From contig DXJF01000106.1 of assembly GCA_019057375.1 (NCBI GenBank), forward strand, positions 1 to 16,277: a DNA stretch of 16,277 bases, written 5' to 3'. Origin of the DNA: Candidatus Heimdallarchaeota archaeon. Lineage in GTDB: Archaea > Asgardarchaeota > Heimdallarchaeia > Heimdallarchaeales > Heimdallarchaeaceae. Below, one piece after another: positions 305-6,064 of this stretch (positions are counted from its first letter, which is position 1; every line of letters starts with the position of its first letter). Under the pieces are notes generated by a model that ran no database searches, was not told where the DNA came from, and worked only from the letters and a program-made list of their open reading frames with translations. Both the position numbers and the translations under genes were made by a program.

Positions 305-1141
305 CTACTCTATCAACATCGTATAATCAAAATTCTTAACTGAGTGTGTTAGTGCGCCTGAGGATATTAGATCTACTCCTTCTAATGCATAATCCTGTAG
401 ATTCTCAGGATTAATGTTACCTGATAATTCGATTAATATATCCTTCTTAACTGACTTGATTTTTGGAATTGTTAGTTTTATTAGTTGGGGAGAAAAATTA
501 TCTAACATAATAATATCCACGCCAGCTTTAGCTGCTTCTATAGCTTGCTCTTCATTTTGAACCTCGACTTCAATTTTCTTGCTGAAGCTAATGATCGCTT
601 GAGCTTTTTTAATAGCCTCTGTGACTGAACTGAAACCTCTAAGATGATTTTCTTTTAGAAGAATCATATCAGATAGATTGAATCTATGAGTATCTCCTCC
701 TCCCACAACAACAGCATATTTATCATATTTCCCTAAACCTGGAACCACTTTTCTTGTTGCACAGATTTTTAACTGAGGGTTTACTTCATGAGCAATTTCA
801 ATCATTTTAGCTGTTTGTGTAGCAATTCCTGATAATCTCCCAAGAATATTCAAAGATACTCTTTCAGCTTGTAATAGATTATGTATATTTCCATTAAAAG
901 AAGCAACAGCTGTTTTCTTTAATACTTTCTCTCCTTCTTTAACCAATATATCAAGTTCTGACCCTAAAAACTCAAAGATTCTTTTTATGAATACAACGCC
1001 TGCAACAACTCCTTCTTGTTTTGTATAGATTTTCCCTTTAGCATTTACACTAGGAAGAAGTGAAGTTGTTACATCCCAGTAAGGTATATCTTCCTCTATC
1101 CATTTTTTAATATCTTCATCTACTAAAACTAGGGGTATCAT
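305..1141 (-). CDS. nadC: Quinolinate phosphoribosyltransferase (nicotinate-nucleotide diphosphorylase, carboxylating)
   Basis: 278 aa with EDIPYWDVTT, AERVSLNILGRLSGIAT, ATRK, GGGDTHRFNLSDMILLKENH, IEVEV, DIIMLDN, ELSGNI and ISSGALTHS, all matching QAPRTase motifs. Lies directly downstream of nadA. Confidence 0.96.
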   Translation of the reverse strand: MIPLVLVDEDIKKWIEEDIPYWDVTTSLLPSVNAKGKIYTKQEGVVAGVVFIKRIFEFLGSELDILVKEGEKVLKKTAVASFNGNIHNLLQAERVSLNILGRLSGIATQTAKMIEIAHEVNPQLKICATRKVVPGLGKYDKYAVVVGGGDTHRFNLSDMILLKENHLRGFSSVTEAIKKAQAIISFSKKIEVEVQNEEQAIEAAKAGVDIIMLDNFSPQLIKLTIPKIKSVKKDILIELSGNINPENLQDYALEGVDLISSGALTHSVKNFDYTMLIE

Positions 1142-1159: not shown

Positions 1160-2185
1160 TTAGTATTTTAGCATATTGTTAACGGCTCGGAAAGCTTTTT
1201 TACGAATCTCTTCATCTAATTCGATAACATTATCATCTGTTGGCTTTTCGAGAGCTTTCCAAGTCGAGAAAAGATCATTTCTTTTCATGCTTATGCATAT
1301 CATTTTACTATCTTCAAACTGAACATCAGGATATTCAACTTTCATTCTATCGATGAACCCTTGTTCAGTTAAGAAAAGAACTTTTTCGTCTTTAGGAGCA
1401 TTGGTTGAATACCTGTGCATGTCCCCAGTTCCCCCTACAAAATCTACAGATTCAATGATTTCTGGTCGGCATTCAAAATGAGCAAAAGTTTTAGTATTAT
1501 CATCAAGAATTAACTTTTCTAATCTTTTGATTGTGAGAGCATTATGAGTTCTACAGGAACCTGGCCAGGTTATAATCTTTTTACCAGTAATTTTTGCTAG
1601 ATTATTTCCCATGTTCTCATCGGGAATAAATATAATGGTATCTTCTTCCAAACTATCTATGATTTTTCGAGCATTAGCTGAGGTACAACAAATATCAGAC
1701 TCAGCTTTTACATCTGCATTTGTATTAACATAACAAACAACAGGAGCTCCAGGATATTCTTCCTTCAGTTTTCTAACATCTTCACCTGTTATTGAATCTG
1801 CTAGAGTACAATCCCTTCCTCTTGCAGGAACTAAAACCAACTTCTCTGGATTAAGAATCTTCACAGATTCTGCCATGAAATCGACACCACAGAAAAGAAT
1901 TCGTTTCTCTTTAATTTCGGTAGCTTTTCTAGCAAGTGCAAGCGAATCACCAACAATATCTGCAATTCCAAAAACAATATCTGCTGTTTGATAGGAATGA
2001 GCAAGTATCTTAAACCCTTTCTCTTTCTTTAGCTGGTTGATTTTATATGTAAAGGGTGCAATTGATTCGCAAGCAGTTTTAGTCCATCCTAGAGGATTCA
2101 ATTTTGTAAATAATCTATCCACTTCTTCCTCTAGTAAACCAAACTCCTCACTTCTTATTTCAGGAGTATCTTCTACAACTACCAT
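1160..2185 (-). CDS. nadA: Quinolinate synthase A ([4Fe-4S] enzyme)
   Basis: 341 aa with ILAHSYQ, GDSLALA, FCGVDFMAESVKILNPEK, CYVNT, CCTSANA, FIPDENMG, AHFEC and TEQG. Three candidate cluster cysteines are present (DCTLAD, GSCRTH, ICISMK). Confidence 0.95.
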   Translation of the reverse strand: MVVVEDTPEIRSEEFGLLEEEVDRLFTKLNPLGWTKTACESIAPFTYKINQLKKEKGFKILAHSYQTADIVFGIADIVGDSLALARKATEIKEKRILFCGVDFMAESVKILNPEKLVLVPARGRDCTLADSITGEDVRKLKEEYPGAPVVCYVNTNADVKAESDICCTSANARKIIDSLEEDTIIFIPDENMGNNLAKITGKKIITWPGSCRTHNALTIKRLEKLILDDNTKTFAHFECRPEIIESVDFVGGTGDMHRYSTNAPKDEKVLFLTEQGFIDRMKVEYPDVQFEDSKMICISMKRNDLFSTWKALEKPTDDNVIELDEEIRKKAFRAVNNMLKY

Positions 2186-2213: not shown

Positions 2214-2221
2214 TATTTAAA
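2214..2221 (-). promoter_or_regulatory. Candidate archaeal TATA box for nadA-nadC
   Basis: TTTAAATA on the minus strand about 30 nt upstream of the nadA ATG (2185). Judged from position and consensus only. Confidence 0.45.
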
Positions 2222-2444
2222 GACTGTTTGTTTAAGGACAAAATTGAACTAAAATTTTGTATACAAGTCTTAAAACTCAAGAAAAATACAATATTGAAGC
2301 ATTCTCTAGCATAGTATAAGCAATAATTGCCTATTTCTCTTGAAGAAAAAGATAGAAGAAGTGTGTTTGAATGCTTCTAAGTTCATTTATGTATTGTTAA
2401 TACGTATTTTAAAAACATCTAAATTTTTGTTATCTGTGGATAAA

Positions 2445-2452
2445 TATAAATA
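2445..2452 (+). promoter_or_regulatory. Candidate TATA box for the NAD-kinase-like/wHTH gene
   Basis: TATAAATA about 43 nt upstream of the ATG at 2496. The AT-rich background makes this uncertain. Confidence 0.3.
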
Positions 2453-2495
2453 AACATTAATCAGTAATAGTAAAGTAAGGAATGTAGATGAAACC

Positions 2496-3542
2496 ATGAT
2501 TTTAGCTCTATATGTGTCCAATCATACTAACTCGCAAAAGTTTGCTGAAATAATAAAGGGAACGCTTCTTGAAATTGATCCAGAAGTTGAAATCATCGAA
2601 TTTGAAGATGAAGAGTTGAATGAAAACAACTGGGAAAATCAGATGAAGGATTTCTCCACACAAAAAGTAAATTGCATTATTTCAGTAGGTGATGCTGGTA
2701 CATTTCTTAGAGCTATTTTTCTTTCAAGATCATCTGCACCGGTTGTTGCTGCATCGTCTGAAAGTGTAAGTTTCTTTACTGAAATAAGTCCAGTTAATCT
2801 TCAGTATACCTTAACAAGTATCTTAAATCGAAAATATGATGTCGATAACTATCATAGAGTAGTCTTTCTAGATTCTGGAAATGGCACGCCAATTCCAGCA
2901 CTAAATGAGATAGCTATATTCCCAAAGGACTCAGCTCTTTTAATGAATTATACTTTAATAATAGATAAGAATCAGCTTTATAGAGGTAGAGCTGATGGAC
3001 TGATTGTGTCTACATCTCTAGGAAGTACAGGTTATGCTCTCTCATCAGGTGGTCCTATAGCTTTTGGTAACCCAGATGTTCTGATTATAGTTCCAGTTAA
3101 TCCATTGAATAAAGAACACATTCCTCTAGTAGTTCCAATTGATTCAGAGATTAAATTGGTAAACTTGCGTTCAAGATCTCCTTTAGAAGCAATAATTGAT
3201 GGTCAAATAAGAATAGGTGTCGATGAGGAAGTATTAGTTAAAAAAGCTTCCTCAACAGCTAGAATAATACGATTTCAAGCTAAGAAAAACATACTTGCTA
3301 AATTACGAAACAGATTAGTCGAATTAGATTTGAGATCTTTAGAACGTGTTCCTCCATCTGCAAAATATATCTTTAAATTGCTTTTAACTGAAGGAGAAAT
3401 GACACAGAAAGAATTAATTGAAAGTACAGGCTTACCTAATAGAACTGTTCGAAACGCTCTATCTATTCTCAAAGAGAAGGGTGTAATTAATCAAAGACCT
3501 CATCTAAGAGATGCTAGACAATCAATTTATTTTGTTGACTAA
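2496..3542 (+). CDS. NAD kinase-like domain fused to a C-terminal winged helix-turn-helix (MarR-like); catalytic motif degenerate
   Basis: NADK C-domain motifs ALNEIAI, ADGLIVSTSLGSTGYALSSGGP and IIDGQ are present. The GGDGT position reads GDAGT. The C-terminal ~65 aa (PPSAKYIFKLL..GEMTQKELIESTGLPNRTVRNALSILKEKGVI..DARQSIY) is a typical archaeal wHTH. Confidence 0.85.
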   Translation: MILALYVSNHTNSQKFAEIIKGTLLEIDPEVEIIEFEDEELNENNWENQMKDFSTQKVNCIISVGDAGTFLRAIFLSRSSAPVVAASSESVSFFTEISPVNLQYTLTSILNRKYDVDNYHRVVFLDSGNGTPIPALNEIAIFPKDSALLMNYTLIIDKNQLYRGRADGLIVSTSLGSTGYALSSGGPIAFGNPDVLIIVPVNPLNKEHIPLVVPIDSEIKLVNLRSRSPLEAIIDGQIRIGVDEEVLVKKASSTARIIRFQAKKNILAKLRNRLVELDLRSLERVPPSAKYIFKLLLTEGEMTQKELIESTGLPNRTVRNALSILKEKGVINQRPHLRDARQSIYFVD

Positions 3543-3702: not shown

Positions 3703-4395
3703 ATGAATTTGCTGGAACCATTAGTAATGAAGAAAATCACCATCTTAGGAACGACTGGTTCAGGGAAAACAACATTTTTGGAAGCACTTTTTGGTAATAT
3801 TGAGAAAAATGATGTTGCACGAAGAATATTTGGAGAAATTAGCAGTAATCTAGATTTTACCCCCTTAAAGTATAACAATTTTGCTTCGAGTACAACAACA
3901 ATATCACTGAATGTGGTAAATTCAGTAATTATATTGACGAGATTTAATAAAGTGCTTTTGAGGAAATATGATAAGATAGAGACGCTTGATTTTGAATCAA
4001 TCGATTCTGCGTTTCAAGTAATTATGAATGACTTGCCTGGGCAAGACAGATTTGATTTTATGCAAGATATTGTAATAAAAGGCTCCGATCTTGTTATTAT
4101 AATGGCCGATGGTACAAATATTTCTTCTTTAGAAAAAATTGTTCATTATTTAGAAATGGTTAAGATGGAAGAAGTTAGAAAAAATAGAAATATTCCTATT
4201 ATTATTTTCATCAATAAATCTGATCTTCGAGATAAAGGGGTATACTTAGGAAGAGAAACAGCTGAGAGAATAGTTTTTTCTTTAATTGTTGATAGGGAAC
4301 TTGTTTTCTATGAAACCACTAATTTAGATGCTAATTGCTATGAATTGCCTTTAACAATCATTTTCAATTATCTTGCTATGCAAGCGTATAGCTGA
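3703..4395 (+). CDS. Ras-superfamily-like small GTPase
   Basis: 230 aa with G1 GTTGSGKTT (16-24), probable G2 Thr in SSTTT (62-66), G3 DLPGQ (110-114), G4 NKSD (171-174) and G5-like ETT (204-206). Confidence 0.88.
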   Translation: MNLLEPLVMKKITILGTTGSGKTTFLEALFGNIEKNDVARRIFGEISSNLDFTPLKYNNFASSTTTISLNVVNSVIILTRFNKVLLRKYDKIETLDFESIDSAFQVIMNDLPGQDRFDFMQDIVIKGSDLVIIMADGTNISSLEKIVHYLEMVKMEEVRKNRNIPIIIFINKSDLRDKGVYLGRETAERIVFSLIVDRELVFYETTNLDANCYELPLTIIFNYLAMQAYS

Positions 4396-4435
4396 AGTTC
4401 TTCAGACTAACTAAATCTTTATCTATTTTGAACGT

Positions 4436-4819
4436 ATGATTTTGTTGAAGGAAATGAAACAAATCAAGCAGCTTACTTTCAACATTACTCAAAGTAGGCG
4501 TATTAAGAACTATGCTCAAAAGAAAAACATTCCTGAAAAATCATTGTTAGTTCGATATCGAGATGTCATGCATAGTATCTACAAAGCTTGGGTGAAAAAT
4601 CAACAAGAAAATCCTGAGTTGCAGTTCAGAGAATTTTTTTTAGATATCGTGAAACATGCAGAATTTGCTTTTAGACTAAAAGAGAGAGAAGAACAACTAA
4701 TAATAATTAAGAATCATGTTGAAATCTTAGAAGATGCAATAGAAGAATACAAAGAAGATTATGCAAAAATCAGTAAGATACAGCAAATCGTTAAAGTTTC
4801 TGAGGAGGGGAATATGTGA
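4436..4819 (+). CDS. Hypothetical protein, possibly an N-terminal ribbon-helix-helix-like domain plus a C-terminal coiled coil
   Basis: 127 aa ORF; the true start may be MKQIK at 4454, after GAAGGA. KQLTFNIT..RRIKNYAQKKNIPEKSLL loosely resembles the RHH strand-helix-helix pattern, and the C-terminus has a heptad-like pattern. The domain call is by eye only. Confidence 0.6.
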   Translation: MILLKEMKQIKQLTFNITQSRRIKNYAQKKNIPEKSLLVRYRDVMHSIYKAWVKNQQENPELQFREFFLDIVKHAEFAFRLKEREEQLIIIKNHVEILEDAIEEYKEDYAKISKIQQIVKVSEEGNM

Positions 4820-5268
4820 TGAAAATAGCAACAACTCAATTCAATGTCAAATTTAAGGACAAAATACCTTGTGGAGATGAAGAGATTCTTGCGAGTGATC
4901 TCGCTTATTATCTCTACTACCTTGACTCAATTCCTGAAAAAATTAGTGATTGGAATATGGCGGATCTTAAAGTGCAAAGAAAAGAAGATGAAGATATTTT
5001 CAACGTACTAAGCAAGGAATATTCTAATTTGTTTAGAAGATATGCCTTAATCAGATTAAAAGCTAATGAATTGTATGAAGGAAACAGAGTAATTGCTCTT
5101 ACTATGGGATTATTAAGGCTAAAATTAATTCAATTTAAGGATTCAGATATAGATTTTCCCTTAGACTACGATAAAGCTATAGAACAAGTAGAATATTTTA
5201 TCTATAGGTATCTTACAAAGAAACAAGACAAAAGATTAGTAGAACAAGTCGTTTTTGATGAAAAATAG
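4819..5268 (+). CDS. Hypothetical helical protein, probably translationally coupled to the upstream ORF
   Basis: The ORF track starts it at GTG 4816. The ATG at 4819 overlaps the upstream stop (TGATG) and is preceded by GAGGAGG at 4802-4808. I recognise no family motif. Confidence 0.65.
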   Translation: MKIATTQFNVKFKDKIPCGDEEILASDLAYYLYYLDSIPEKISDWNMADLKVQRKEDEDIFNVLSKEYSNLFRRYALIRLKANELYEGNRVIALTMGLLRLKLIQFKDSDIDFPLDYDKAIEQVEYFIYRYLTKKQDKRLVEQVVFDEK

Positions 5269-5332: not shown

Positions 5333-6064
5333 ATGATTCGTTGCATTGTTTATGTTAGAACCTCAACAGCTGATCAAGAATCAGGTTTAGAAACACAAGT
5401 TGATGACGTTACAGCAAAAATCTATCAAGCTGGAGATAGGGAGATTATCAAAATAATCAAAGATGAGGATGTTCCAGGTGATAGTGATCCAGAATATAGA
5501 GTAGGATTCAAAGAGATTCTAAGAATGGTTGAAGAAAATGAATTTGATGAGTTGTGGAGTCAATCCAGAGACCGTTTATCGAGAGATGTAGATATTCTAG
5601 GATACATTCGGGTTATGCTCAAGAAAAAAGAAATATCTATCATCTGTTTAGATGATGAAGATAACAAAGCATTTGCTAGAATAAAGGATCTTTTTGGAGA
5701 AATGGAGTTAGAGAAATATAGAGAAAAACGATACAAAGGTATGTTACGAAGAATAAATGATAAAAAAGTTATGTCTCGTCCTCCATTTGGATATGCAGTT
5801 GATGAGGGGGGAAACTTAATAGCTGATGAAAGTAAAATGGGTCTTATTAGACGTCTTTTCGGTGAGTTTGATAATCCTTTTGCATCACTAAAAACCCTAA
5901 GTATGAAATATAACATCCCTGTATCCACTCTGAGAAATATACGATCTAATCCTATTTATAGAACAGGAGAAGTAAGGTGGGCTGGGAAAATAGCTTATTA
6001 TGTGGATCCAATAGTTCCAGAAGATAAAGATCAGATGTTAAAAACTGAATGGGAAGGAAGGTGA
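5333..6064 (+). CDS. Serine recombinase (resolvase catalytic domain plus recombinase DNA-binding domain, no zinc-ribbon domain)
   Basis: YVRTST (catalytic Ser11), DQ..LETQ, RVGFKEIL, RDRLSR, then SRPPFGY, IRRLF and IRSNPIYRTG..DPIV, which are typical of the recombinase domain of large serine recombinases. The protein ends at 243 aa. Confidence 0.9.
   Translation: MIRCIVYVRTSTADQESGLETQVDDVTAKIYQAGDREIIKIIKDEDVPGDSDPEYRVGFKEILRMVEENEFDELWSQSRDRLSRDVDILGYIRVMLKKKEISIICLDDEDNKAFARIKDLFGEMELEKYREKRYKGMLRRINDKKVMSRPPFGYAVDEGGNLIADESKMGLIRRLFGEFDNPFASLKTLSMKYNIPVSTLRNIRSNPIYRTGEVRWAGKIAYYVDPIVPEDKDQMLKTEWEGR

What the first reader, a model, noticed from the sequence alone, without database searches (positions are those of the whole stretch)
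2496..3542. NAD-kinase-fold pseudoenzyme fused to a wHTH, divergent from nadA-nadC: candidate pyridine-nucleotide-sensing transcription factor
Seen: the NADK signature GGDGT reads GDAGT (aa 65-69, nt 2688-2702), so the conserved Asp position is Ala. The usual GINxGxLGFL motif reads AASSESVSFF. The C-domain NAD-contacting motifs (LNE, DGLIVSTSLGSTGYALSSGGP) are well kept, a complete wHTH follows, and the gene is head-to-head with de novo NAD synthesis genes. Known: the GGDGT Asp is important for NADK catalysis, and characterised NAD-pathway regulators (NadR, NiaR, NrtR, NadQ, Rex) use other sensor folds. NADK-HTH fusions may already exist in archaeal annotations. Inference: the kinase fold has been repurposed as an NAD/NADP or NaAD sensor controlling nadAC, which would be a regulator class I do not know to be characterised.
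Basis: partly seen in the sequence, partly recalled or inferred. Interest (0 to 1): 0.8.

Follow-up and report, generated by a model that had tools for sequence, protein, structure and literature searches.

The report
NAD-kinase-derived regulator of archaeal NAD genes
A Heimdall-group Asgard archaeon carries a spare, apparently disabled copy of NAD kinase joined to a DNA-binding domain, and comparison across archaea indicates it is a switch, not found in the papers searched, for the genes that make the coenzyme NAD.

Summary
Gene 2496-3542 encodes a 348-aa protein with a full NAD-kinase fold and a C-terminal winged helix. The catalytic GGDGT motif reads GDAGT and the second glycine-rich motif reads SSESVSFF. 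The NAD-contacting motifs (NE, GSTGY, DG) are invariant across the family. The gene is divergent from nadA-nadC, and the genome has a separate canonical NADK.

The fusion is a broad archaeal family (Heimdallarchaeaceae, Loki-type Asgard, DPANN, Thermoproteota, Nitrososphaeraceae). In 12 of about 18 lineages examined it sits next to NAD genes: de novo (nadA/C/X/B) or salvage (pncA, pncB, nadE, nadM, nadK).

A 13-bp palindrome, GGCAA-N3-TTGCC (window 2319-2331), lies upstream of nadA in 18 of 26 regions from fusion-bearing Heimdall genomes and in 0 of 44 from fusion-less ones. It recurs in NAD-gene intergenic regions of five other clades.

About 20% of family representatives keep GGDG[TS]. In one such genome the fusion is the only NADK found, so decay from a bifunctional ancestor is likely.

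Best reading: an NAD(P)-sensing repressor. Effector and sign are inferred, not shown. No paper describing it was found. This scan has already reported the same family from other genomes.

The parts
305..1141 (-). nadC, quinolinate phosphoribosyltransferase; likely regulated target and second gene of the nadA-nadC operon
   Evidence: TIGR00078 nadC scores 316 bits, over its cut-off; Pfam QRPTase_N and QRPTase_C.
1160..2185 (-). nadA, quinolinate synthase; likely regulated target, divergent from the regulator gene
   Evidence: NF006878 scores 323 bits, over its cut-off; Pfam NadA 323 bits. The divergent arrangement is conserved in nearly all Heimdallarchaeaceae loci.
2214..2221 (-). Candidate TATA box of nadA (TTTAAATA on the minus strand), about 30 nt from the nadA ATG, which implies a near-leaderless mRNA
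   Evidence: Read from the sequence. It sits at IGR position about 29 in almost all orthologous spacers. Promoter function is inferred.
2236..2248 (.). O2: a weak operator-like element (GGACAAAATTGAA) directly upstream of the nadA TATA box
   Evidence: Its position (IGR about 51) is conserved across genera, but it has 2-4 mismatches to GGCAA-N3-TTGCC. Spacing to O1 is 81-84, 95 or 72-73 bp in different genera. Tentative.
2316..2334 (.). O1: candidate operator. The core is AGCAATAATTGCC at 2319-2331, inside the extended 19-bp near-palindrome ATAAGCAATAATTGCCTAT
   Evidence: It sits about 132 nt from the nadA ATG in all Heimdallarchaeaceae genera. It stays with nadA where the fusion gene is 6 kb away (G005). 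None of 44 nadA upstream regions from fusion-less Heimdall genomes has a match with at most 1 mismatch. The same palindrome occurs in NAD-gene IGRs of five other clades.
2389..2407 (.). Second palindrome (ATGTATTGTTAATACGTAT), about 35 nt upstream of the regulator's TATA-like box; binder unknown
   Evidence: It is conserved only within the genus: absent from genera g2, g4 and g5 and from other phyla. It is therefore not the family-wide operator.
2440..2455 (+). TATA-like A/T box in front of the regulator gene
   Evidence: GGATAAATATAAATAA is conserved in many genus-level spacers. Promoter function is inferred.
2496..3542 (+). NADK-like/wHTH fusion gene (348 aa), the proposed regulator
   Evidence: The AF2 model has pLDDT 86, and the best Foldseek hits are NAD kinases (TM 0.80-0.87 on the target).
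2688..2702 (+). Degenerate catalytic motif: GDAGT in place of GGDGT
   Evidence: Orthologues read GDTGT, GGTGT, GSTGT or GHTGT.
2748..2777 (+). Degenerate second glycine-rich motif: AASSESVSFF in place of GINxGxLGFL
2901..2909 (+). LNE (aa 136-138), the NE/D motif that contacts NAD in NADKs
   Evidence: N137 is invariant in the family. The motif's role is taken from PMC9763689.
2994..3056 (+). Conserved region II (DGLIVSTSLGSTGYALSSGGP), the dinucleotide-binding part of the C domain
   Evidence: D167, G168, T173, G176, S177, T178, Y180, S183 and G186 are invariant in 22 diverse fusions. Roles are taken from PMC9763689.
3351..3539 (+). Winged helix-turn-helix (aa 286-348); the recognition helix includes RTVRNAL
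   Evidence: Pfam HTH_24 is over its cut-off. AF2 gives helices 287-299, 304-311 and 315-327 plus a beta hairpin at 331-347. P287, A289, L313, R316 and T317 are invariant, and V318 and R319 nearly so, across phyla.

Best explanation
The gene encodes a transcription factor built from a duplicated NAD kinase. The kinase fold has lost its catalytic, ATP-handling glycine-rich motifs but keeps the pocket that holds NAD(P). It therefore acts as a sensor of the pyridine-nucleotide pool. Like other NADKs it probably forms a dimer or tetramer. Its C-terminal winged helices would then bind the palindrome GGCAA-N3-TTGCC (O1, 2319-2331), and probably a weaker copy next to the nadA TATA box (O2, 2236-2248). 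The most likely mode is end-product control. When NAD+ or NADP(H) is plentiful the liganded protein binds DNA and shuts down nadA-nadC and possibly its own gene. When the pool falls it releases the DNA. Shown here: the fold, the motif decay, the separate canonical NADK, the conserved NAD-gene neighbourhood and the conserved palindrome. Inferred: DNA binding by this protein, the identity of the effector, repression rather than activation, and loss of kinase activity.
For: Fold and motifs. P0001 scores 140 bits against NF002984, whose cut-off is 326.

Canonical NADK alongside the fusion: the own genome has a 279-aa NADK with GGDGT and GVNCGKVGFL. A canonical NADK also co-occurs in 13 of 14 fusion-bearing DPANN genomes and in 4 of 5 other genomes checked. 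Six Heimdall-clade homologues in the hit list (about 68-74% identical) read GGTGT, with no Asp at all, so Asp66 is not conserved.

Context: the fusion is divergent from nadA-nadC(-nadX) in Heimdallarchaeaceae, L085, L088, L006 and L008. It is divergent from nadA alone in L091 and from nadA with nadB nearby in L207. It precedes an NAPRTase-like gene in L092 and L007. It sits in pncB | pncA-nadE-(prs)-nadK or nadM clusters in DPANN.

Operator: O1 has a fixed position in four Heimdallarchaeaceae genera. A match with at most 1 mismatch occurs in 18 of 26 nadA upstream regions from fusion-bearing genomes and in 0 of 44 from fusion-less Heimdall families. Perfect or 1-mismatch copies lie in NAD-gene IGRs of L008, L088, L091, L092 and L205. 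In non-Heimdall loci 5 of 15 such hits fall in the 2.3% of sequence that is regulatory IGR (binomial P = 1.5e-5; shuffles average 0.054 hits). In the 0.6-Mb genome G087 the only perfect match is the nadA/fusion spacer. The recognition helix RTVR is nearly invariant across phyla.
Against: No experiment exists.

O1 lies about 100 bp from both recognisable TATA boxes in this window. That is an unusual position for a simple archaeal repressor and would fit an activator. O2 is a poor match (4 mismatches here).

In the DPANN salvage clusters, in L202 and in L207 only degenerate relatives of the motif are seen. In Vulcanisaeta and Nitrososphaeraceae no site was found at nadA, and genome-wide perfect matches are not next to NAD genes.

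The Heimdall contrast is a single clade against its sisters, so it is not independent. The consensus was refined after the L088 and L008 sites had been seen, which makes the test partly circular.

About six of the roughly 18 lineages examined have no NAD gene beside the fusion.
Confidence: 0.72

Rival explanations
1. It is an activator, not a repressor. It binds O1 about 100 bp upstream of the nadA promoter and recruits TBP/TFB when NAD is scarce. The effector would then be a precursor or breakdown product (NaMN, quinolinate, ADP-ribose), or the apo form would be the active one.
For: O1 is far upstream of the nadA TATA box in all Heimdallarchaeaceae, a position typical of archaeal activators (own knowledge). 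NrtR responds to ADP-ribose rather than NAD (PMC2330246).
Against: In L088, L091 and L008 the palindrome directly abuts a TATA-like element, which is the BRE position. Bound there, a protein should block TFB. An operator-like element also abuts the nadA TATA box in this window. End-product repression is the usual logic for cofactor pathways (NadR, NiaR, RbkR).
Confidence: 0.17
2. It is still an active NAD kinase as well as a regulator, that is, bifunctional like RbkR, NadR or BirA, with Asp66 taking over the role of the shifted Asp.
For: An Asp remains in the loop (GDAGT). Fifteen of 74 tail-bearing representatives keep GGDG[TS]. In the Micrarchaeota genome G288 such a fusion is the only NADK found. 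One intact-motif fusion, P0182, is also divergent from nadA. Bifunctional members therefore probably exist.
Against: In this clade the second Gly of GGDGT and the whole second Gly-rich motif are gone. Close orthologues have GGTGT, GSTGT or GHTGT with no Asp. The motif decays differently in each clade, which indicates relaxed selection. A canonical NADK is present in this genome. The NCBIfam score is far below every NADK equivalog cut-off.
Confidence: 0.07
3. The palindrome belongs to another transcription factor or is a clade-specific promoter element. The fusion protein would bind elsewhere (for example the 2389-2407 palindrome) or regulate something other than NAD genes.
For: Assignment of O1 to this protein rests on co-occurrence only. 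The 2389-2407 palindrome lies nearer the fusion gene's promoter. Vulcanisaeta sites are not at NAD genes.
Against: The same palindrome turns up beside fusion genes in at least six separate clades of the family tree, and not at nadA of fusion-less Heimdall genomes. The 2389-2407 palindrome is confined to one genus.
Confidence: 0.04

Closest known systems
NrtR, the Nudix-related transcriptional regulator of bacterial NAD metabolism (Rodionov et al. 2008, PMC2330246)
   Same: An enzyme-derived N-terminal sensor domain with a perturbed catalytic signature is joined to a C-terminal wHTH. It is annotated as the enzyme. It sits next to NAD de novo and salvage genes, has palindromic operators upstream of them, and its motif varies between lineages.
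   Different: The sensor fold is Nudix (ADP-ribose pyrophosphatase), not NAD kinase. NrtR is bacterial, and its effector is ADP-ribose. There is no sequence or fold relationship in the sensor domain.
RbkR, the archaeal riboflavin kinase/wHTH regulator (Rodionova et al. 2017, PMC5397151)
   Same: It is an archaeal cofactor-pathway regulator made of a kinase of that pathway fused to a wHTH. It was found by comparative genomics and controls biosynthesis and transport genes of its own cofactor.
   Different: RbkR is bifunctional, with an active CTP-dependent riboflavin kinase. It belongs to a different fold and pathway, and its HTH is N-terminal (own knowledge). Here the kinase motifs have decayed in most members.
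Canonical NAD kinase NadK/PpnK (EC 2.7.1.23), e.g. A. fulgidus 1SUW/1Z0S and M. tuberculosis 1U0T/1Y3H
   Same: The two-domain fold is the same (TM 0.80-0.87 on the target). The NE, conserved-region-II and DG motifs are shared.
   Different: The GGDGT and GxxGxLGFL motifs are degenerate. A roughly 90-residue linker plus wHTH has been added. The protein scores below all NADK equivalog cut-offs. The fusion NADK domains form one group apart from canonical NADKs (support 91/88).
NadR of Enterobacteria (HTH + NMN adenylyltransferase + ribosylnicotinamide kinase)
   Same: NAD-pathway enzyme domains are fused to a DNA-binding domain. It represses NAD genes with NAD as co-repressor (cited in PMC5397151, and in PMC2330246).
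   Different: The enzyme folds are unrelated, the enzyme domains remain active, the HTH is N-terminal, and NadR is bacterial.
Rex (NADH/NAD+ redox-sensing repressor)
   Same: A wHTH joined to a dinucleotide-binding domain reads the pyridine-nucleotide state (own knowledge).
   Different: Rex has a Rossmann-fold sensor and an N-terminal wHTH. It controls fermentation and respiration genes rather than NAD synthesis.

Membership tests
NAD kinase (NadK/PpnK, EC 2.7.1.23) | Two-domain NADK fold (N-terminal alpha/beta domain plus C-terminal beta sandwich) | tested here: met
   AF2 model with pLDDT 86. The top Foldseek PDB hits are all NADKs, E about 1e-22, TM 0.80-0.87 on the target. phmmer against 1SUW gives 5e-24.
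NAD kinase (NadK/PpnK, EC 2.7.1.23) | GGDGT motif with the catalytic Asp (D185 in mouse NADK, PMC9763689) | tested here: not met
   The motif reads GDAGT, and Ala67 aligns with the Asp. Orthologues read GDTGT or GGTGT.
NAD kinase (NadK/PpnK, EC 2.7.1.23) | Second glycine-rich motif GxxGxLGFL | tested here: not met
   It reads SSESVSFF, whereas the own canonical NADK has GVNCGKVGFL.
NAD kinase (NadK/PpnK, EC 2.7.1.23) | NE/D motif and conserved region II (GSTAY), which recognise NAD | tested here: met
   N137-E138 and D167...G176-S177-T178-G179-Y180 are present and invariant across fusions.
NAD kinase (NadK/PpnK, EC 2.7.1.23) | Score over a curated NCBIfam NADK equivalog cut-off | tested here: not met
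   The best score is NF002984 at 139.9 bits against a cut-off of 326. The own canonical NADK is also below the cut-off (215 bits), so this criterion is weak for Asgard proteins.
NAD kinase (NadK/PpnK, EC 2.7.1.23) | Phosphorylation of NAD to NADP | not testable with these tools
   An enzyme assay is needed.
Winged-helix transcription factor (MarR/TrmB/ArsR-like wHTH) | Three-helix bundle plus beta-hairpin wing, recognised by wHTH profiles | tested here: met
   HTH_24 scores 24.4 bits against a cut-off of 21.9; TrmB and MarR_2 fall below their cut-offs. AF2 gives H287-299, H304-311 and H315-327 with strands 331-335 and 343-347.
Winged-helix transcription factor (MarR/TrmB/ArsR-like wHTH) | Palindromic operator near regulated promoters | tested here: met
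   GGCAA-N3-TTGCC lies in NAD-gene spacers of six clades. Assignment to this protein is by co-occurrence only.
Winged-helix transcription factor (MarR/TrmB/ArsR-like wHTH) | Sequence-specific DNA binding | not testable with these tools
   EMSA or footprinting is needed.
NrtR family | [quoted passage not shown] | tested here: not met
   No Nudix match was found; the N-terminal part is NADK. The protein works like NrtR but is not a member.
RbkR family | CTP-dependent riboflavin kinase domain | tested here: not met
   No such Pfam or NCBIfam match was found.

The most novel reading that the evidence does not exclude
Archaea from Asgard to DPANN use a family of NAD-kinase-derived transcription factors that read the NAD(P) pool directly through the old substrate pocket. 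The family began as bifunctional kinase-regulators. These survive in Micrarchaeota and Diapherotrites, where the fusion can be the only NADK. Catalysis was then lost repeatedly wherever a second NADK was available. As NADK-type tetramers the proteins bridge two operators set in helical phase (O1-O2 spacings of about 73, 83 and 95 bp) and loop the nadA promoter.
Probability: 0.3. Interest if true: 0.85.

Novelty: new variant of a known kind. Interest (0 to 1): 0.72.

Why it matters
In the papers searched I found no described transcriptional regulator of NAD synthesis for Archaea. The known regulators (NadR, NiaR, NrtR, NadQ) are bacterial. This family would fill that gap for several archaeal phyla, including the Asgard relatives of eukaryotes. 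It would correct hundreds of database entries now labelled 'NAD(+)/NADH kinase'. It also offers a clear case of an enzyme becoming a ligand sensor, with both bifunctional and decayed forms still extant for comparison. A palindromic operator and a small, soluble, well-folded protein make it directly testable in vitro.

Tried and rejected
1. PWM scan of the own genome. Apart from the window's site, which was part of the training set, the only strong intergenic hit is G000:C71:8216, 67 bp from a contig end and behind a Zn-dependent dehydrogenase. The region is not conserved in relatives. Unresolved.

2. No site was found upstream of nadX in the own genome (C65), which sits behind another ORF. None of the PWM hits of 14 or more lies near nadE (C12:109888) or the NMNAT gene (C63:76663).

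3. The 2389-2407 palindrome was rejected as the operator because it is confined to one genus.

4. DPANN salvage clusters give only low PWM scores. They carry related ATGGG(A/C)AA-type half-sites that I could not validate.

5. Vulcanisaeta distributa and Nitrososphaeraceae have no convincing site at nadA. Perfect genome-wide matches lie beside a HAD hydrolase, an SBF transporter/Lrp pair or inside genes. Their regulon is unresolved.

6. Rfam finds no riboswitch or other family in the 310-bp spacer.

7. A first related-loci run was swamped by canonical NADKs and yielded only six fusion loci.

8. A strict regex for the wHTH under-counted tails and was replaced by alignment coverage.

9. Literature searches for an NADK-derived transcription factor found nothing. 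The library holds open-access papers and bioRxiv only.
Full report
**What is there.** The window lies in a Heimdallarchaeaceae (Asgard) genome: the best homologues are named Heimdallarchaeaceae and Heimdallarchaeum. ORF 2496-3542 (+) encodes 348 residues. Pfam finds NAD_kinase (aa 34-114), NAD_kinase_C (aa 136-259) and winged-helix models at aa 291-345. NCBIfam NADK equivalogs match at 140 bits or less, far below their cut-offs. An AlphaFold2 model built on a 22-sequence alignment has mean pLDDT 86. Behind a disordered linker at 261-280 it shows three helices and a beta hairpin. Foldseek ranks only NAD kinases at the top, with TM 0.80-0.87 normalised to the target. Across a 310-bp spacer lie nadA (1160-2185) and nadC (305-1141), both over their NCBIfam cut-offs.

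**The motifs.** The alignment to A. fulgidus NADK 1SUW puts GDAGT (aa 65-69, nt 2688-2702) on GGDGT and SSESVSFF on NTGRVGLL. A review of NADK (PMC9763689) names three conserved elements:
- the GGDG motif, whose Asp is the catalytic centre at the 2' position of the ribose;
- the NE/D motif;
- conserved region II, whose Thr and Tyr recognise adenine and nicotinamide.

The last two are intact here (N137-E138, T178, Y180). They are invariant in 22 fusions that are only 32-89% identical. In the GGDGT position only the first Gly is invariant. Among the Heimdall-clade homologues listed the motif reads GDTGT, GDAGT, GGTGT, GSTGT or GHTGT. The six GGTGT proteins (about 68-74% identical) have no Asp at all, so Asp66 is not under selection in this clade.

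**A separate NADK.** The genome has four NAD_kinase_C matches:
- a 279-aa canonical enzyme with GGDGT, GVNCGKVGFL and GSSAY, which scores 215 bits to NF002984;
- the fusion itself;
- two NADK-like proteins of 371 and 388 aa, both with GGDGT and no NCBIfam match. Their length and layout recall the COG3199 type (from memory, untested).

A canonical NADK accompanies the fusion in 13 of 14 fusion-bearing genomes of a 201-genome DPANN sample. The same holds in Heimdallarchaeum aukensis, Vulcanisaeta distributa, a Nitrososphaeraceae MAG and a Thermofilaceae MAG, but not in one Promethearchaeati MAG.

**The family.** The fusion is widespread. It occurs in Heimdallarchaeaceae (26 of 31 species genomes counting G000), but in none of 52 genomes of the other Heimdall families. 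It also occurs in Loki-type Asgard, Nanoarchaeota/Woesearchaeota, Parvarchaeota, Micrarchaeota, Diapherotrites, Thermoproteota (Vulcanisaeta, Thermofilaceae), Nitrososphaeraceae and Thermoplasmata.

In a tree of the NADK domains the fusions form one group apart from canonical NADKs (support 91/88; 90% of bootstrap trees). An exhaustive profile search returned its 150 best 50%-identity representatives. Among the 74 that carry the wHTH tail, 59 have a degenerate motif and 15 keep GGDG[TS]. Among the 50 without a tail, 41 keep it, and the nine that do not are mostly fragments (Fisher 7e-12, but relatives are not independent).

The decay takes a different form in each clade: GDTGT, GDDNL, GTDKF, GDDHF. 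Intact-motif fusions occur in Micrarchaeota and Diapherotrites. In Norongarragalina meridionalis (G288, 0.9 Mb) the fusion is the only NAD_kinase_C match in the genome. Another intact member, P0182, is divergent from nadA and next to a nadB-like gene. The simplest history is a bifunctional kinase-regulator that lost catalysis repeatedly where a second NADK existed. This history is inferred.

**Genomic context.** NAD genes lie beside the fusion in 12 of about 18 lineages examined.
- De novo, divergent nadA-nadC(-nadX): this window and nearly all Heimdallarchaeaceae loci; L085 and L088; Thermofilaceae L006 and Nanoarchaeota L008.
- De novo, divergent nadA alone (L091) or nadA with nadB nearby (L207).
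- Salvage: an NAPRTase-like gene follows directly in L092 and in Loki-type L007.
- Salvage clusters in DPANN that lack nadA: fusion, then pncB opposed to pncA-nadE-(prs)-nadK (L192-L201).
- Other salvage clusters: nadM-like plus nadK (L194); Nudix-pncB opposed to pncA-nadE-nadK (L202); nadM opposed to pncB-like-pncA-nadE-nadK (L205).

No NAD neighbour was seen in Vulcanisaeta, L090, L203, L204 and Nitrososphaeraceae L009.

**The operator candidate.** Aligning 19 orthologous nadA/fusion spacers shows three conserved blocks: the nadA TATA region, a palindrome AGCAA-N3-TTGCC about 132 nt from the nadA ATG, and a longer palindrome at 2389-2407.
- The 13-bp palindrome (window 2319-2331; extended ATAAGCAATAATTGCCTAT, 2316-2334) is present in all four Heimdallarchaeaceae genera for which a nadA upstream region could be read. 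It stays with nadA in G005, where the fusion gene is 6 kb away.
- The 2389-2407 palindrome occurs in one genus only.
- A match with at most 1 mismatch to GGCAA-N3-TTGCC is present in 13 of 19 adjacent fusion-bearing regions (500 nt upstream of the NadA Pfam match), in 5 of 7 further regions from fusion-bearing genomes, and in 0 of 44 regions from fusion-less Heimdall families.
- Outside Heimdall, perfect copies lie in the nadA/fusion spacers of L008 and L088. One-mismatch copies lie in L091, upstream of the NAPRTase-like gene in L092, and in the nadM/pncB spacer of L205.
- Over 25 non-Heimdall loci (238 kb), 5 of 15 such hits fall in the 2.3% of sequence that is regulatory spacer (binomial 1.5e-5; shuffled spacers give 0.054 hits on average).
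- In the 0.6-Mb genome G087 the nadA/fusion spacer holds the only perfect match.
- The recognition helix RTVR(N/H/Y)AL is shared by all clades that carry the clear motif.

Caveats: the consensus was sharpened after the L088 and L008 sites had been seen, and the Heimdall contrast is one clade against its sisters.

**Mechanism.** In L088 and L091 the palindrome abuts a TATA-like element on the fusion-gene side. In L008 it abuts one on the nadA side. A protein bound there would occupy the BRE position and should block TFB, which indicates repression. In this window O1 is about 100 bp from both recognisable TATA boxes. A conserved but weak look-alike, O2 (2236-2248), abuts the nadA TATA box. The O1-O2 spacing is 81-84, 95 or 72-73 bp in different genera, close to whole numbers of helical turns. 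NADKs are typically tetramers, and mammalian NADK is a homotetramer (PMC9763689). A tetramer could therefore bridge O1 and O2. This is speculative.

The effector is inferred from the conserved NAD pocket and from pathway logic. NAD+ or NADP(H) as co-repressor is most likely. The presence of nadK in the DPANN clusters makes NADP(H) a serious candidate. An activator mode, or an effector such as ADP-ribose as in NrtR (PMC2330246), is not excluded.

**Comparison and novelty.** The closest analogue in architecture and role is NrtR: an inactive Nudix domain plus a C-terminal wHTH controlling bacterial NAD genes. The closest archaeal analogue is RbkR, an active riboflavin kinase plus wHTH (PMC5397151). 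NadR is the classic NAD-pathway enzyme-regulator fusion. The protein fails the defining catalytic features of NADK and has none of the sensor folds of NrtR, RbkR, NadR, NiaR or Rex. Six full-text searches found no paper on an NADK-derived regulator or on an archaeal NAD regulon of this kind; the library is limited to open-access papers and preprints. Databases name these proteins NAD(+)/NADH kinase. Earlier notes of this scan report the same family from other Heimdall genomes and name a 13-bp palindrome. I re-derived and tested that claim here. I added the salvage-cluster contexts, the intact-motif subgroup and the case where the fusion is the only NADK.

**Verdict.** This is a new variant of a known kind: an enzyme-derived cofactor-sensing transcription factor. 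I put about 0.7 on the regulator reading and about 0.85 on loss of kinase activity in this clade. The sign of regulation and the effector are still open.

Noticed in passing
window 2389-2407: A 19-bp near-palindrome (ATGTATTGTTAATACGTAT; perfect TACGTATTG-N-CAATACGTA in relatives) lies about 35 nt upstream of the regulator's TATA-like box. It is conserved only within the genus. Binder unknown; it may be a second, lineage-specific regulator of the fusion gene.
   Followed up: partly
window 2227-2248: The inverted repeat TTTGT-N6-ACAAA upstream of the nadA TATA box changes to TTTGA-N6-TCAAA in three close relatives, a paired change. The pairing is broken in others (TTCGT...). It overlaps the weak operator-like element O2.
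   Followed up: partly
window 3703-5268: A Ras/Arf-like small GTPase (230 aa) is followed by two small ORFs (127 and 150 aa) with no Pfam or NCBIfam match, then a serine recombinase (5333-6064). This looks like a typical Asgard small-GTPase neighbourhood. The two small ORFs are uncharacterised.
   Followed up: no
G000:C39 (L003 1489-2604) and G000:C132 (L004 1477-2643): Two further NADK-like proteins of 371 and 388 aa have an intact GGDGT and no NCBIfam match. Their length and layout recall the COG3199 'ATP-NAD kinase family' type (from memory, untested). Function unknown.
   Followed up: no
L206 (G288, Norongarragalina meridionalis) and L207: NADK-wHTH fusions with an intact GGDGT occur in Micrarchaeota and Diapherotrites. 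In G288 the fusion is the only NAD_kinase_C match in the genome. In L207 it is divergent from nadA and next to a nadB-like gene. These are probably bifunctional kinase-regulators.
   Followed up: partly
G000:C71:8216-8234 (L129): This is the second-best PWM hit in the genome (TGAGGCAAGTTTTGCTTAT). It is intergenic, 67 bp from a contig end, behind a Zn-dependent dehydrogenase. The downstream gene is not assembled and the region is not conserved in relatives.
   Followed up: partly
L181 (G003:C345:1773-2144): The contig ends in an Illumina adapter sequence (AGATCGGAAGAGCGTC). Its spacer closely resembles genus-g1 spacers such as L110, although G003 is placed in genus g2. This is probably a contaminant or chimeric contig in that MAG.
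   Followed up: no
L014 (Vulcanisaeta distributa, G083:C2): The fusion gene matches in two segments in different frames (residues 93-231 and 231-334), and the open frame around the NADK_C match is only 164 aa. This indicates a frameshift or a sequencing error in this isolate genome.
   Followed up: no
L210 (G084:C13:8101-8113): A perfect 20-bp palindrome, TTAAGGCAAGGTTTGCCTAA, containing the operator consensus lies between two convergent gene ends (a methyltransferase and a helicase/SWIM protein) in a Nitrososphaeraceae MAG. It is more likely a terminator-like hairpin than an operator.
   Followed up: partly
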